This document shows, in pieces, positions 3,344-33,176 of a stretch of 58,698 nt of DNA. The notes beneath the pieces were generated by a model. It did no database searches and had not been told where the DNA came from. It was given only the letters and a program-made list of their open reading frames with translations. A program made the position numbers and the translations under genes. The DNA comes from a virus. Lineage: Duplodnaviria > Caudoviricetes. The number at the start of each line of letters is the position of its first letter. Positions within the stretch are counted from its first letter, which is position 1. The DNA lies in IMG/VR virus record IMGVR_UViG_3300043173_000778, positions 1 to 58,698 of that record; one strand, written 5' to 3'.

Positions 3344-3371
3344 TTGACAAAATAACCTCAAAAAAAATAAT
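3344..3371 (+). promoter_or_regulatory. sigma70-type rightward promoter (divergent from the above)
   Basis: TTGACA 3344-3349, 16 nt, AATAAT. Confidence 0.5.
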
Positions 3372-3409
3372 CTGATTCCAGTGAACGATTTTTTAATTTT
3401 AACTGAGAG

Positions 3410-3595
3410 ATGAGAATGAGTAAATTTATAGCACGATTTTTTTTAATGACGCTGGCTATCATTCTGTGGGTTTTGATAATGATGTTAGGTTGGGGTTTGG
3501 AGCCTAAATCGTGGTGGTGGATAATAGGCGGCGGCGTGGGGATCAAAAGTCTTATTATTATTATGGAAATTTTAGTTAAAGTAGAAGAAAAATGA
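3410..3595 (+). CDS. small membrane protein (2 TM)
   Basis: two hydrophobic segments. Confidence 0.55.
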   Translation: MRMSKFIARFFLMTLAIILWVLIMMLGWGLEPKSWWWIIGGGVGIKSLIIIMEILVKVEEK

Positions 3596-6312: not shown

Positions 6313-6453
6313 ATGAAAAAAATAATCATGCGTTGCACGTATTGCTACAAACCAGTTGAGGTCGAGGAGAATAGCCCCGAACACGAAAGAAAAAATATGG
6401 TTTTTTGTTGCGAAGAATGTAGGCAGGCAATGTATTTTTTCAGAGGGAAATAA
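6313..6453 (+). CDS. small Cys-rich (Zn-binding) protein, not in ORF track
   Basis: MKKIIMRCTYCYKP...FCCEECRQ. Confidence 0.5.
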   Translation: MKKIIMRCTYCYKPVEVEENSPEHERKNMVFCCEECRQAMYFFRGK

Positions 6454-6641
6454 TGGATTGCATAATCAGGATAAACAAAGACACATGGGAAGCTCCGTGG
6501 TGGGGCGATCCCGGCATGACCGCAAAAAGGGAAAACGCCAAAATTTACGAGAGCAAAAAAGAGGCTCAGATAGTCGCGGATAAACTGATAAAAGAGGGCT
6601 ACAAGGAGACTAAGGTAGAAAAATATGGAATCTTATCTTGA
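6453..6641 (+). CDS. hypothetical protein
   Basis: ORF with GAGGG RBS. Confidence 0.55.
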   Translation: MDCIIRINKDTWEAPWWGDPGMTAKRENAKIYESKKEAQIVADKLIKEGYKETKVEKYGILS

Positions 6642-7422
6642 GGATACGCTGGTCGCTGACACGCTGCAATTTATCCGCGATAACCTAAAAGACAAAGGTA
6701 AAATTTTTGTCGGTTTTTCTGGTGGCAAGGATTCGATTGTGACGGCGGCTTTGATGAAAGAGTCCGGCGTGGATCATCAGCTATATTATTCAGCCACCGG
6801 CATTGATCCGCCGGAAGTGGTCAAGTTTATCCGCCGCAACTACCCAAAGTGTAAATTTTTGCGGCCCAAAAGAACGTTTTGGCATTCTATGCTGACAAAA
6901 AATCCGCCGGCTAATTTCAGCCGCTGGTGTTGAGAAAAGCTCAAAAAAGAGCCGAGTTATCGGATCAAAATCAAACATAGAGTTTTTGGAATTCGGGCTG
7001 AAGAAGGCAGCAAAAGAAGCCAATACAGGGAAATTGAATATTATAAGAAAAAACAGCATTGGCGTTACTATCCCATTTTGAGCTGGAATGAGGGGGAAAT
7101 TTGGGAATATATCGACGACAATAAACTCGCCTATCCTAAACTTTATGATGACGGCCTTAGCCGCATAGGATGTGTAATTTGCTCCTTCCATTCCACCGCC
7201 AATGGAGTCGGGCATAATTTTTACCGCAAACGCTGGCCGAAGTTTTTTGAACGATTTGAGAAAAAATGTAGGGAGTGGTACGAAAAACGACAGGCTCAGG
7301 GGAGGGAAATGTTTTTCGACACACCGGAGGAGTTTATCAGCGAATGGTATAAGGGCAATGTCCAATGGTATAAACGTCAAGAATCACAAACCGATCAAAT
7401 GAATTTTGAGGACTTTGAATGA
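6625..7422 (+). CDS. PAPS/APS-reductase-family protein with in-frame TGA (6931-6933) at RWC(U); putative selenoprotein, 265 aa
   Basis: FSGGKDS PP-loop, TGIDPPEV, RWC*EKLK, GIRAEEGSKR, YPILSW, RIGCVIC all in one frame; ORF track splits it into 6625..6933 and 7078..7422. Confidence 0.85.
6949..6966 (+). promoter_or_regulatory. candidate bacterial SECIS upper stem-loop
   Basis: GA-G-CCGA[GTTA]TCGG-A-TC; apical loop starts with G(U) 22 nt after the UGA. Confidence 0.5.
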
Positions 7423-7934
7423 AACTATACACCACTTTGCGGATGATGGCAGAATTTAGCCACCGGCACAGTGAATTAAATAATCCACGCTTAGAGCGCC
7501 TGATTAACTCTCTAAGCGTGGATTGGTCGGCAGATGAGCTAATTGATCTCGTATCTATTTTGGAATTTTCTGGGGTGAACAACTGCCTTTGGGCGCTTAG
7601 AACGATTTTTAATAAAAAAGCGTTATGCCATCGGATAATTATAAAATTTAAATTAGCTCTGGCTAAAAAACATTTACCAAATTACGAAAAGAATTATCCA
7701 AAAAATACAGGCCCGCGTGAATGCTTGGATTTGATTCAGAGATGGATTATTAATCCAGGGGAAATTTCGGATAAAAATTTAATAAACGCCGCAAAGAAAG
7801 ACGCCGCGTTTGCCGCAGGCGTCGCCTTTGATGTTGTTTATATAGATGAGGCTATATATCGCGCTGATGTTGTTGATGTTAGTTATCAAGATTGGCAAAA
7901 ACAGAAATTAAAAGAATGTCTTGAGGGACTTTGA
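7419..7934 (+). CDS. hypothetical protein (Imm5-like helical region)
   Basis: SILEFSG...CLWALR...LPNYEKNYP...PRECL pattern seen in phage Imm5-like proteins. Confidence 0.55.
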   Translation: MKLYTTLRMMAEFSHRHSELNNPRLERLINSLSVDWSADELIDLVSILEFSGVNNCLWALRTIFNKKALCHRIIIKFKLALAKKHLPNYEKNYPKNTGPRECLDLIQRWIINPGEISDKNLINAAKKDAAFAAGVAFDVVYIDEAIYRADVVDVSYQDWQKQKLKECLEGL

Positions 7935-8930: not shown

Positions 8931-9158
8931 ATGGAAATATCCATAGATGAATATAATAAAAAATACAAAAACGCCTTCCCGGCTGATTATTCAAAATATT
9001 ACAACAACGAATACGGCGACTACGGAGCGCAAAAAATAGATATTTTTAAAAGCCTTGGGGTGGTTATAATAACGCTGATCGTTCATGGAGATTTTAGGCG
9101 CGTTCAGAAAACGTTTGAGGAATTGGGAATGCGATCCGCCACTCAGACAAGATTTTAA
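8931..9158 (+). CDS. hypothetical protein flanked by 24-bp direct repeats
   Basis: ORF; repeats at 8909-8932 and 9138-9161. Confidence 0.55.
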   Translation: MEISIDEYNKKYKNAFPADYSKYYNNEYGDYGAQKIDIFKSLGVVIITLIVHGDFRRVQKTFEELGMRSATQTRF

Positions 9159-9166
9159 AATAAAAT

Positions 9167-10168
9167 ATGTGGATACTACCAAAATGCCAAGAATACTCTC
9201 GCTTTGCTCAGGATACGGGGGAATCGAAATTGGTCTTGAAAGAATCTTTGGAAAAATTTCCACACTCGCTTATGTGGAAATCGAAGCCTATGCCACTGCG
9301 GTCCTGGTTGATAAAATGGAAGCGGGGCGGCTGGCTCCGGCGCCTATCTGGACGGATATTAAAACATTCAATGCAAAAATCTTTCGAGGAGCGGTTGATA
9401 TCCTTTGTGGAGGTTATCCTTGTCAACCGTTCAGCGCGGCCGGAAAGCGGAAAGGAAAAAAAGACCCGCGCCACTTGTGGCCGCATATCCAAAGAATTAT
9501 CAAAGAATGCCAGCCGAGATATTGCTTTTTTGAAAACGTCGAAGGTCATATCAGCCTGGGATTGGAGGCGGTTTTATCCGACCTGGGAAAACTTGGTTAC
9601 AGAGTTGAGGCGGGAATATTCTCTGCGACTGAGGTCGGCGCTCCTCATCAAAGAAAAAGAGTTTTTATCCTGGCCAACTCCAGCTACCAAAATGCTAGAT
9701 TGCCCATCGGAGAGATTGCGGAAAAATCCAAATTTAGAGGCGGCAATAAATGGCCAGCAAGACCAGGACAACCACAATACGAATGGGAAGAACCAAGAAC
9801 AATCATGGATGACACCTGAAGCTCAAAATCATACAGGTTATCAGATAAGCAACGGAAAGAAAATTTTAAGATTAGGTAGCCAGATACTAGTCTGGCCGAG
9901 TCCCCGCACTGGAAAAACATCAAGCCCGACAAGCAATCACAAATGTCCTGAAGAAATCTATAAACATAGACTTAATCCGGACTGGGCAGAACAACTCACA
10001 GGGCTTCCCGTCGGCTGGACTCAGTTAAGCGACGCCAAATCCGGCGAAAACCGAATAGACAGGCTTCGACTCCTGGGCAACGGAGTTGTCCCGCAAACGG
10101 CGGAAAAAGCTTTTAGAGTTTTATTTGAGAAAATTCAAAAGCCAAAAGATGAGCAAATAACTTTTTAA
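9167..10168 (+). CDS. C5 methyltransferase second subunit (WPTP repeats, motifs IX-X), overlapping in +1 frame
   Basis: WPTP/WMTP/WPSP, LNPDWAEQLTGLPVGWT, RIDRLRLLGNGVVPQ. Confidence 0.8.
   Translation: MWILPKCQEYSRFAQDTGESKLVLKESLEKFPHSLMWKSKPMPLRSWLIKWKRGGWLRRLSGRILKHSMQKSFEERLISFVEVILVNRSARPESGKEKKTRATCGRISKELSKNASRDIAFLKTSKVISAWDWRRFYPTWENLVTELRREYSLRLRSALLIKEKEFLSWPTPATKMLDCPSERLRKNPNLEAAINGQQDQDNHNTNGKNQEQSWMTPEAQNHTGYQISNGKKILRLGSQILVWPSPRTGKTSSPTSNHKCPEEIYKHRLNPDWAEQLTGLPVGWTQLSDAKSGENRIDRLRLLGNGVVPQTAEKAFRVLFEKIQKPKDEQITF
9184..9819 (+). CDS. C5-cytosine DNA methyltransferase, subunit with motifs I-VIII
   Basis: LSLCSGYGG, GGYPCQPFS, FFENV, PHQRKRVF; lacks motifs IX-X. Confidence 0.9.
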   Translation: MPRILSLCSGYGGIEIGLERIFGKISTLAYVEIEAYATAVLVDKMEAGRLAPAPIWTDIKTFNAKIFRGAVDILCGGYPCQPFSAAGKRKGKKDPRHLWPHIQRIIKECQPRYCFFENVEGHISLGLEAVLSDLGKLGYRVEAGIFSATEVGAPHQRKRVFILANSSYQNARLPIGEIAEKSKFRGGNKWPARPGQPQYEWEEPRTIMDDT

Positions 10169-33104: not shown

Positions 33105-33176
33105 TGCGGGATAGGGGAACGGCACCCCATGAGACTCATAACCTTAAGGTTCTCGGTTCGATTCCGGGTCCCGCAA
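33105..33176 (+). tRNA. tRNA with CAT anticodon (Met, fMet-like scaffold); no encoded CCA
   Basis: TGCGGGA/TCCCGCA acceptor, GGGG/CCCC D stem, CTCATAA loop, CTCGG-TTCGATT-CCGGG T arm. Confidence 0.85.

What the first reader, a model, noticed from the sequence alone, without database searches (positions are those of the whole stretch)
6625..7422. Candidate phage selenoprotein: PAPS-reductase-family enzyme with UGA at an Fe-S-ligand Cys and a SECIS-like hairpin
Seen: one frame carries FSGGKDS...RWC-TGA-EKLKKEP...GIRAEEGSKR...YPILSW...RIGCVIC with no other lesion. A hairpin GA-G-CCGA[GTTA]TCGG-A-TC has its G-first loop 22 nt after the TGA. Known: in this family RWCC plus a distal CxxC ligate a [4Fe-4S] cluster, and bacterial SECIS elements lie just 3' of the UGA with a G early in the apical loop. 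TGA ends many other genes here and TGG is used for Trp, so this is not genome-wide recoding. Inference: the phage borrows host SelA/SelB/tRNA-Sec to make a Cys-Sec enzyme with Sec as a cluster ligand. It sits next to two DNA MTases, so it may act in sulfur/selenium-linked DNA modification, or the UGA may make expression depend on selenium or on the host. Cys insertion by a UGA-reading host tRNA is an alternative.
Basis: partly seen in the sequence, partly recalled or inferred. Interest (0 to 1): 0.92.

Follow-up and report, generated by a model that had tools for sequence, protein, structure and literature searches.

The report
Probable selenocysteine codon in phage enzyme
A gene of an uncultured marine-sediment phage has a UGA "stop" exactly where its relatives have an iron-sulfur-binding cysteine, and dozens of diverged relatives stop at the same spot, so it is most likely read as selenocysteine by the host, something I found reported for no virus of bacteria.

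Summary
Observation confirmed. ORF 6625-7422 is a PAPS-reductase-family gene (PF01507). Its only lesion is TGA 6931-6933, at the second Cys of the invariant WCC pair that aligns with the [4Fe-4S] ligands of APS reductase 2GOY.

- A second assembly of the (probably same) sample carries the same TGA. So does a diverged 276-nt contig.
- 44 distinct metagenomic proteins, in at least 29 clusters of 33-81% identity, end exactly at ...RWC.
- Two other loci with DNA show TGA at a ligand cysteine with the frame open behind it: L108 at the same column, and L003 at the first Cys of CxxC.
- One near-identical pair (P0148/P0404) implies TGA.
- On a tree the trait is inherited within clades but arose at least about 10 times.

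The hairpin is real but weak on its own (z -1.4). Under a criterion chosen after seeing the data (GU in the loop), 3 of 3 TGA sites pass against 22 of 350 Cys-codon control sites.

Neither phage record encodes tRNA-Sec or SelB, and the host is unknown. Best reading: a host-dependent selenoprotein (about 0.65). The link to DNA modification is weak. This scan noted the same phenomenon earlier on other phage DNA. I found no paper describing it.

The parts
6625..7422 (+). PAPS-reductase-family gene read through its one internal TGA (265 codons plus the terminal TGA). The ATG has an AAGGTAG-type ribosome-binding site upstream, and the stop overlaps the next gene's ATG (ATGA, 7419-7422).
   Evidence: PF01507 E 8e-27, 94.8 bits against a cut-off of 22.5. 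phrog_424 E 1.2e-37. AlphaFold2 model pLDDT 89.0, best PDB match 2goy APS reductase at E 8e-10.
6715..6735 (+). PP-loop ATP-pyrophosphatase motif FSGGKDS (residues 31-37).
   Evidence: Invariant in alignments A1 and A3.
6928..6933 (+). Cys102 codon TGT followed by the in-frame TGA (residue 103). This is the candidate Cys-Sec dyad at the CC position of the CC-X79-CxxC motif.
   Evidence: W101, C102 and C103 are invariant in 22 aligned homologues. They align with C139 and C140 of 2goy_A. 190 of 192 distinct homologous DNA sites carry TGT or TGC here, and the other 2 carry TGA (the window and L108).
6949..6966 (+). Small hairpin: outer GA/TC, a G.A mismatch, inner CCGA/TCGG, loop GTTA at 6956-6959. 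Candidate minimal SECIS.
   Evidence: Centroid -6.4 kcal/mol. Best local hairpin -3.7 kcal/mol with the loop 22 nt after the TGA. It passes the post hoc GU-in-loop criterion that 13 of 190 Cys-codon controls pass.
7171..7182 (+). CxxC (C183-V-I-C186), the distal pair of the predicted cluster ligands.
   Evidence: Invariant in A1. Aligns with C228 and C231 of 2goy_A. In L003 the first of these two codons is TGA.

Best explanation
The gene encodes a stand-alone PP-loop/PAPS-reductase-fold enzyme with a CC-X79-CxxC iron-sulfur motif. UGA at codon 103 is decoded as selenocysteine. During infection of a Sec-competent bacterium, the host's SelB with Sec-tRNA(Sec) would recognise a short hairpin whose GU-containing loop lies about 20 nt after the UGA. 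This would give a full-length protein with a Cys-Sec dyad in place of the Cys-Cys pair.

Shown here:
- The position of the UGA.
- Its recurrence and inheritance among diverged relatives.
- The intact, conserved downstream frame.

Inferred:
- That Sec is the residue inserted.
- That the hairpin is the SECIS.
- That the residue ligates a [4Fe-4S] cluster.
- That the host has selABCD.

The substrate is unknown. The protein lacks the C-terminal catalytic cysteine of sulfonucleotide reductases, so it is not a sulfate-assimilation CysH.
For: 1. Position. The UGA falls on an invariant Cys. That Cys aligns with ligand C140 of APS reductase 2GOY. The -CC-X~80-CXXC- motif ligates the 4Fe-4S cluster of APS reductases (PMC1175818, passages seen).

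2. Recurrence.
- 12 of 39 short homologues and 28 of 137 short homologues examined in all end exactly at ...[RK][WYF]C.
- P0302 is a further case.
- 25 of 26 members of 10 such clusters end there, and they come from JGI, ENA, Logan and NCBI.

3. The stop is TGA and the frame continues.
- L108 has TGG TGT TGA, open for 152 more codons to TAG, with GCVVC kept.
- P0404 is identical to P0148 over 104 residues. It then reads W and runs on for 140 residues with GCMVC. That is what a table-4 gene call makes of TGA.

4. A second ligand position. L003, from an 85-kb phage record, keeps WCC but has RIG-TGA-VIC, open to TAA.

5. Inheritance. On a tree of 207 N-terminal parts the 28 stop-type rows need 10 changes. 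In 200 label shuffles the mean was 26.7 and the minimum 23. There are 14 pure clades.

6. The downstream part is still conserved. Identity to Cys homologues is 63-71% after the TGA and 64-77% before it. For L108 the figures are 53-64% and 55-67%.

7. A 276-nt contig that differs at 19 places over 6873-7005 shows no change at 6931-6933. By my reading of its listed changes downstream of the TGA, 4 codons change synonymously and 2 change the residue.

8. Hairpins. All 3 TGA sites with DNA have a hairpin of -3.7 to -6.9 kcal/mol whose loop starts 19-22 nt after the TGA and contains GU. 13 of 190 and 9 of 160 Cys-codon control sites do the same.

9. This is the only internal in-frame TGA in the genome.
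Against: - The window's hairpin is only 4+2 bp. Its fold is unremarkable (z -1.40). 33% of Cys-type controls fold the 45 nt after the site as well, and in GC-matched sets 6.6% (whole 45 nt) and 16% (best local hairpin) do.
- A competing hairpin, GCTC-A6-GAGC (6939-6952), is in the MFE fold of the 45 nt.
- The GU-in-loop criterion was chosen after seeing the data.
- No Rfam family matched.
- Only 3 TGA sites, plus one partial contig, could be seen as DNA. For the other clusters the stop codon is inferred.
- The stop type is rare: 2 of 192 and 1 of 162 distinct DNA sites.
- Neither the window (100% complete) nor L003's record (98% complete) encodes tRNA-Sec or SelB, and no host is known. So the presence of Sec machinery where this phage replicates is untested.
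- The C5 methyltransferase 2 kb downstream is split between two frames, so this genome may carry real lesions.
- Many family members in metagenomes are broken by frameshifts just before RWCC.
- Serine substitution of the second tandem Cys in P. aeruginosa APS reductase has a milder effect than that of the first (PMC1175818, passage). The position may therefore tolerate other residues.
Confidence: 0.65

Rival explanations
1. The UGA is read through without selenium. A near-cognate tRNA (Cys or Trp), a host UGA-reading tRNA-Cys, or Cys-charged tRNA(Sec) would give a low level of full-length, mostly Cys-containing enzyme. The codon would then act as an expression throttle or a host-dependent switch.
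For: - It explains equally well why the stop sits at a Cys column and why the downstream frame is conserved.
- The hairpin is weak.
- No Sec machinery is encoded in either phage record.
- The second tandem Cys is the less critical ligand in APS reductase (PMC1175818).
Against: - A throttle could sit at any codon. Here TGA is found only at two of the four ligand cysteines, in about 10 or more independent lineages.
- That is the Sec/Cys pairing by which bacterial selenoproteins are identified (criteria in PMC1976440, passages).
- Bacterial UGA read-through mainly inserts Trp (recalled), which would not serve as a ligand.
- The phage carries no suppressor tRNA.
Confidence: 0.12
2. In this genome the TGA is a plain nonsense allele, so the gene is dead or dying. 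The recurrence elsewhere would reflect repeated loss of a dispensable accessory gene.
For: - TGT to TGA is a single base change.
- The neighbouring C5 methyltransferase is also broken.
- Broken copies of the family are common in metagenomes: 45 of the 137 short proteins are neither CC-bearing nor RWC-ending, and many of them are frameshifted.
Against: - Random knock-outs would scatter along the gene, not hit one codon in 28 of 137 short proteins.
- The stop is shared by sisters only 69-81% identical to the window's N-terminal part.
- The 162 codons after it carry no second lesion and are 63-71% identical to intact homologues.
- The ATGA overlap with the next gene is kept.
Confidence: 0.12
3. 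Split enzyme. Translation stops at the UGA and restarts downstream, giving an N-terminal PP-loop piece and a separate C-terminal piece.
For: - Gene callers do report two pieces (P0124 and P0122).
- In L108 a TTG lies two codons after the TGA.
Against: - In the window the first in-frame ATG, GTG or TTG after the TGA is at 7078, 48 codons later. That would discard the invariant K107, G122, R124, E126, E127 and R131.
- L003 would be split at a quite different place, and again at a ligand Cys.
Confidence: 0.05
4. Sequencing or assembly error. The true codon would be TGT or TGC.
For: It is a single base, in a metagenome assembly. Raw reads could not be inspected, because run X1 is kept as contigs.
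Against: - An independent assembler gives the same base at depth 21.4.
- A diverged contig in the same run also keeps TGA.
- The same stop occurs in many other data sets.
Confidence: 0.02

Closest known systems
Bacterial selenoprotein genes with an in-ORF SECIS read by SelB (prototype: E. coli fdhF)
   Same: - An in-frame UGA aligned with Cys in most homologues.
[quoted passage not shown]
- A hairpin just 3' of the UGA whose loop lies about 20 nt away and contains G and U. Those are the SelB determinants as I recall them.
   Different: - The gene is carried by a tailed phage that encodes no Sec machinery.
- The hairpin is much shorter and weaker than the classical element.
- The family is not mentioned in the main texts of deep-Sep (PMC12013277) or BSepDB (PMC13326102) (term searches). 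BSepDB's list of 111 families is in a supplement that I could not open.
- No experiment exists.
Assimilatory APS reductase with a [4Fe-4S] cluster (PDB 2GOY; M. tuberculosis 7LHR)
   Same: - Same fold: Foldseek E 8e-10, probability 1.00.
- A CC-X79-CxxC motif in register with the cluster ligands.
   Different: - Scores lie far below NCBIfam's cut-offs: TIGR02055 at 48.8 against 235.3 bits.
- There is no conserved C-terminal cysteine, which PMC1175818 calls essential for all sulfonucleotide reductases. No Cys after C186 is invariant.
- A canonical SGGKDS PP-loop is present.
- It is therefore unlikely to reduce APS or PAPS.
PAPS-reductase-domain proteins of DNA-modification and defence systems (BrxP of BREX type 4, SspD, DndC)
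   Same: Domain-level matches: BrxP E 3.4e-26, SspD 1.1e-11, DndC 1.4e-6. Here the gene lies in an early region with two DNA methyltransferases.
   Different: - It covers only part of BrxP (profile positions 112-345 of 779).
- DndC TIGR03183 scores 21.7 against a cut-off of 290.4 bits.
- No partner genes of those systems were seen.
- Neighbours vary among relatives.
Cys-Sec dyad of mammalian thioredoxin reductase, and Sec as a metal or cluster ligand in formate dehydrogenase, [NiFeSe] hydrogenase and HdrA (all recalled, not checked here)
   Same: An adjacent Cys-Sec pair, and Sec replacing a metal-ligand Cys.
   Different: The fold, the organisms and the insertion system all differ. There is no evidence yet on what the dyad does in this protein.

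Membership tests
Pfam PF01507 PAPS_reduct domain superfamily | Score above Pfam's gathering cut-off | tested here: met
   94.8 bits against 22.5, E 8e-27, residues 27-187.
Sulfonucleotide (APS/PAPS) reductase, CysH | Score above the NCBIfam cut-offs for CysH or APS reductase | tested here: not met
   NF002537 53.1 against 154; TIGR00434 49.6 against 165.1; TIGR02055 48.8 against 235.3; TIGR02057 41.2 against 254.2.
Sulfonucleotide (APS/PAPS) reductase, CysH | Essential catalytic cysteine near the C-terminus (PMC1175818) | tested here: not met
   No Cys after C186 is invariant or nearly invariant among 22 homologues. C215 is replaced in several of them.
Fe-S type APS-reductase-like cluster site | CC-X~80-CxxC motif in register with the ligands of a solved structure | tested here: met
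   C102/U103 and C183/C186 align with C139/C140 and C228/C231 of 2goy_A. The spacing is 79 residues. That these four residues ligate the cluster in 2GOY is recalled. The motif's role is stated in PMC1175818. Cluster binding by this protein is not testable here.
DndC (DNA phosphorothioation) | Score above the cut-off of equivalog TIGR03183 | tested here: not met
   21.7 against 290.4 bits. PADLOC DndC E 1.4e-6, partial.
Bacterial selenoprotein | In-frame TGA aligned with Cys in homologues | tested here: met
   190 of 192 distinct DNA sites carry a Cys codon and 2 carry TGA.
Bacterial selenoprotein | [quoted passage not shown] | tested here: met
   The window, L108 and the 276-nt contig of X1 at this column; L003 at the CxxC column; P0148/P0404 by inference.
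Bacterial selenoprotein | SECIS hairpin directly 3' of the UGA | tested here: inconclusive
   A hairpin is present at the right distance in 3 of 3 sites. It is weak in the window (z -1.40). The criterion that separates it from controls (22 of 350 pass) was chosen post hoc. bSECISearch was not available.
Bacterial selenoprotein | Sec machinery (selA, selB, selC, selD) in the translating cell | not testable with these tools
   The host is unknown: best matches to cultured phages are 34-40% identical. The phage records themselves lack tRNA-Sec and SelB.
Bacterial selenoprotein | Selenium in the protein | not testable with these tools
   Needs 75Se labelling or mass spectrometry.

The most novel reading that the evidence does not exclude
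A widespread family of phage-borne selenoproteins. Tailed phages of anoxic habitats repeatedly replaced one ligand cysteine of a PP-loop/PAPS-reductase-fold iron-sulfur enzyme with UGA-encoded selenocysteine. The replaced Cys is either the second of the CC pair or the first of CxxC. This would make a viral enzyme depend on the host's SelB/tRNA-Sec system and on selenium supply, and would create a Se-ligated [4Fe-4S] cluster or a Cys-Sec redox dyad. These would be the first selenoproteins of viruses of bacteria.
Probability: 0.6. Interest if true: 0.85.

Novelty: new variant of a known kind. Interest (0 to 1): 0.8.

Why it matters
Selenoproteins are known from cells and from a few animal viruses (recalled). 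I found none described for phages in seven full-text searches.

If the reading is right:
- Phages can exploit the host's recoding machinery, so host range and enzyme activity would hinge on selABCD and on selenium.
- Standard gene callers systematically split these genes into two "hypothetical" pieces.
- Sec at a tandem-cysteine Fe-S site would be a natural experiment on selenium ligation of clusters.
- It would also give a small, easily cloned reporter (UGA plus about 35 nt) for a minimal bacterial SECIS.

Tried and rejected
Genome-wide recoding (table 4 or 25) is rejected. TGA ends many ORFs, Trp is TGG next to the site, and only one internal TGA exists.

An archaeal host with a 3'-UTR SECIS is rejected as unlikely. 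The phage has a DnaB-type helicase, a DnaD-like loader and a myovirus tail module.

Searches that found no further TGA-type DNA:
- A degenerate DNA pattern in IMG/VR gave 15 hits, all chance.
- IMG/VR with A1 gave 80 loci; L003 among them was recognised only later.
- IMG/VR with L108's protein gave 4 loci, all Cys.
- IMG/VR with A5 gave 47 loci and none TGA: 43 show a Cys codon at the site and 4 gave no readable site, among them one frameshifted copy, L209.
- IMG/VR with L003's protein found only itself.
- GTDB genomes with P0001 gave nothing.
- GTDB genomes with A5 gave 11 loci; the 10 in which my script found the motif are Cys-type, and L189 gave no motif.
- GenBank phages by tblastn gave 18 records, all 40% identical or less.

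Other steps that gave little or nothing:
- Rfam gave no SECIS-like match.
- The representative-library search added one case, P0302. Short pieces are rarely cluster representatives, so its 3 of 150 is no frequency.
- No RNA holder was listed for the region.
- The literature search for the 2GOY ligand numbers found nothing under those numbers. PMC1175818 gave the motif instead.
- Supplements such as BSepDB's family list were closed and may name this family.
- Complex prediction, the Atlas and covariance models were not used, because three sequences are too few for a model.
Full report
**What the window is.** The window is a complete IMG/VR virus record of 58,698 bp. It has a 127-bp direct terminal repeat and 41.6% G+C. 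It is a tailed phage of bacteria.
- PHROGs finds a large terminase, portal, major head protein, tail sheath, tape measure and baseplate proteins. It also finds a DnaB-like helicase and a DnaD-like loader.
- ARAGORN finds one tRNA, tRNA-Met at 33105-33176.

**The observation.** From ATG 6625 to TGA 7420-7422 one frame is open except for TGA 6931-6933.
- The read-through product (P0001, 265 residues) matches PF01507 (E 8e-27, 94.8 bits against a cut-off of 22.5) and phrog_424 (E 1.2e-37).
- An AlphaFold2 model built on 22 sequences has pLDDT 89.0. Its best solved match is the Fe-S APS reductase 2GOY (Foldseek E 8e-10).
- In phmmer's alignment to 2goy_A, C102 and codon 103 fall on C139 and C140, and C183 and C186 fall on C228 and C231.
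- Passages of PMC1175818 state that the -CC-X~80-CXXC- motif ligates the 4Fe-4S cluster of APS reductases. Here the spacing is 79 residues.
- The hairpin at 6949-6966 is also there, with its loop 22 nt after the TGA.

**Is the TGA real?** Run X1 is a marine-sediment metagenome and possibly the source sample. It holds a 56,544-nt Logan contig at depth 21.4 that is identical over 6400-7600.
- The same run has a 276-nt contig (depth 3.5) that differs from the window at 19 places over 6873-7005.
- The table lists changes at 6918, 6934-6936, 6948, 6960, 6961, 6963, 6966 and 6972, but none at 6931-6933. A diverged relative therefore keeps the TGA.
- I read these changes against by hand. After the TGA, four codons change synonymously (K, Y, I, I) and two change the residue (E to T, R to G). 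That is what a translated stretch should show.

**Relatives.** 788 proteins of 146-466 aa match P0001 at E ≤ 1e-5. The best are 70-73% identical. In an alignment of 22, W101, C102, C103, C183 and C186 are invariant.

Gene callers cut a TGA-bearing gene in two, so I searched the shorter proteins.
- 12 of 39 hits end exactly at ...RWC.
- A profile of those pieces then listed 120 more short proteins. Of the 137 short proteins examined in all, 28 end at [RK][WYF]C, 64 run on with CC, and 45 end elsewhere, at contig ends or after frameshifts.
- The 1.84-billion-protein representative library added P0302.
- Ten of these clusters were opened. 25 of their 26 members end at the same residue. They come from JGI, ENA, Logan and NCBI contigs of up to 11 kb.
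- The 26th member, P0404, is identical to P0148 for 104 residues. It then reads W and continues for 140 residues through GCMVC. Only TGA is a stop in table 11 and Trp in table 4, so that stop is TGA and its frame is open.
Among those that continue, 294 have C there.

**DNA-level cases.** Across all loci fetched, 192 distinct sites could be read at the CC column. 190 are TGT or TGC and 2 are TGA, namely the window and L108.
- L108 is a 1,046-bp JGI contig, about 46% identical to P0001. It has TGG TGT TGA at 524-532 and is open from 206 to TAG 989-991, with GCVVC kept.
- I then scanned every locus for stops at the other ligand positions.
- That scan found L003 (also fetched as L204 and L238), in an 85,285-bp IMG/VR record that is 98% complete. 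It keeps WCC but reads RIG-TGA-VIC-P, open to TAA.
- At the CxxC column, 161 of 162 distinct sites are Cys codons.
- The in-frame TGA is therefore found at two different predicted ligand cysteines and, in these data, at no other column.

**Inheritance.** I built a FastTree of 207 N-terminal parts, cut at the site. I dropped rows without the PP-loop or the CC-site motif, rows with fewer than 85 residues before the site, and the window's own P0001, P0122 and P0123.
- The 28 stop-type rows need at least 10 changes of state. In 200 label shuffles the mean was 26.7 and the minimum 23.
- They form 14 pure clades, with support from 41 to 100.
- The trait is therefore passed on through substantial divergence. 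The window's N-terminal part is 81% identical to P0127 and 69-75% to P0128-P0131. It has also arisen many times.
- A tree of about 100 residues is weak, so "10" is a rough figure.

**Downstream conservation.** The window's protein is 64-77% identical to eight Cys-type homologues before the site and 63-71% after it. For L108 against six sisters the figures are 55-67% and 53-64%. There is no second lesion in the 162 codons (window) or 152 codons (L108) that follow. The gene's stop overlaps the next ATG as ATGA.

**The hairpin.** By energy it is unremarkable.
- The 60-nt fold has z = -1.40.
- 33% of Cys-type controls fold the 45 nt after the site as well. In GC-matched sets the fraction is 6.6% for the window and 4.3% for L108.
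- 50 of 190 controls have a local hairpin of -3 kcal/mol or better with G early in the loop.

The three TGA sites do share an architecture.

| Site | Stem | Loop | Loop starts after the TGA |
|---|---|---|---|
| Window | CCGA/UCGG | GUUA | 22 nt |
| L108 | CUUCC/GGAAG | AGGUA | 20 nt |
| L003 | 8 bp | GUC | 19 nt |

- In the first two, the inner stem ends at +30, an unpaired A follows at +31, and two outer pairs close the structure.
- In the 276-nt contig, the three changes on the 3' arm shift the register by one. By hand I find they still allow a 4-bp stem with loop AGUUA.
- All of the loops contain GU, which I recall as the SelB determinant.
- I set a criterion after seeing this: -3 kcal/mol or better, loop of 8 nt or fewer, loop starting 16-30 nt after the codon, GU in the loop. 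13 of 190 controls at the CC site and 9 of 160 at the CxxC site pass, against 3 of 3 TGA sites.
- This supports the Sec reading but does not prove it.

**Machinery and host.** No tRNA-Sec and no SelB are encoded in the window or in L003's record, so decoding would rest on the host. The host could not be named. The best matches among cultured phages are all distant.

| Protein | Best match | Identity |
|---|---|---|
| This enzyme | Methanosarcina virus MetMV | 39.8% |
| Large terminase | Synechococcus phages | 36.9% |
| Major head protein | a Rhizobium phage | 34.4% |

Cys-type relatives occur in MAGs labelled Desulfovibrio, Deltaproteobacteria, Syntrophales, Peptococcaceae, Puniceicoccales, WWE3 and Bacteroidales. 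That says little about this phage.

**What the enzyme is.** It is not a CysH.
- All NCBIfam sulfonucleotide-reductase models score far below their cut-offs.
- The C-terminal catalytic cysteine that PMC1175818 calls essential is absent.
- It resembles the PAPS-reductase domain of BrxP (E 3.4e-26), SspD (1.1e-11) and, weakly, DndC.

The local context is a PNKP-type HAD phosphatase, a small ORF, this gene, two small ORFs, an N6/N4 methyltransferase and a C5 methyltransferase. In 15 related loci, 20 neighbour proteins were tested:
- 2 are N6/N4 methyltransferases.
- 2 are DUF5131.
- 2 are weak DnaB-like hits.
- One each is ROS/MucR, Rha, a sigma-70-like protein, an integrase and DUF7666.
- 9 are unassigned.

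A role in DNA modification is possible, but conserved gene order does not show it.

**Rivals.**
- Read-through without selenium fits most of the data and cannot be excluded from sequence alone.
- A plain nonsense allele does not fit the recurrence at one codon, the sharing among diverged sisters or the intact downstream frame.
- A split gene would discard invariant residues.
- An assembly error is contradicted.

**Literature.**
- Searches for selenoprotein with PAPS reductase, phage, SECIS, metagenome or phage genome listed no paper on a phage selenoprotein or on a selenoprotein of this family (I saw the listings).
- PMC6145125 reports a predicted tRNA-SeC gene in Basilisk-like Bacillus phages, with an unrelated Cys-type PAPS reductase (passages).
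- PMC9402790 says that the selenoprotein families it examined have few or no viral sequences in GOS (passages).
- PMC5029168, PMC12013277 and PMC13326102 do not mention this family in their main texts (term searches).

**Earlier notes of this scan.** Three follow-up notes on other phage genomes describe the same kind of UGA in PAPS-reductase-family genes. I treated them as leads. The counts above are my own.

Noticed in passing
window 9085-10168 (+): The C5 cytosine methyltransferase is split between two frames. Frame A (9085-9819) matches PF00145 positions 2-168 (E 3.9e-38) and stops. The +1 frame (open 9167-10168) carries the C-terminal motifs. By eye the switch lies near 9790-9805. It could be a frameshift mutation, a sequencing error or programmed shifting; this is undecided.
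   Followed up: partly
proteins P0135, P0141-P0143, P0208, P0212, P0216, P0217, P0222, P0224, P0227, P0238, P0245, P0249, P0250; locus L209: Many metagenomic members of the family are frameshifted just before the RWCC motif. Several then run on for 50-80 residues in the other frame with a recurring sequence of the ...APP-x-x-x-S-x-GA-x-ITSK type. That is odd for random damage. It might be a second recoding phenomenon, or a hotspot for errors or mutations.
   Followed up: no
proteins P0148 and P0404 (one 90% cluster): The same gene is on record twice, once cut at the stop (104 aa) and once read through with W (245 aa). Some public gene calls evidently switch to table 4 on such contigs and hide candidate Sec codons as Trp.
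   Followed up: partly
window 6939-6952 (+): A second small hairpin, GCTC-A6-GAGC, overlaps the 5' flank of the candidate SECIS. It competes with it in the MFE fold of the 45 nt after the TGA.
   Followed up: no
window 7419-7422 (+): The stop of the PAPS-reductase-like gene overlaps the start of the next ORF (7419-7934, weak Imm5-like hit) as ATGA. This suggests translational coupling that would need ribosomes to pass the internal UGA.
   Followed up: no
L008 3666-4451 and L177 2007-2906: DUF5131 (PF07505) proteins lie next to the homologous gene in 2 of 15 related loci (E 4e-73 and 3e-80). They may be a recurrent partner.
   Followed up: no
L003 about 3370-3440: The UxxC-type homologue carries an insertion of about 20 residues (NLHAWVTFSERSGGMMWTP...) between the CC motif and GIRAEE that the other homologues lack.
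   Followed up: no
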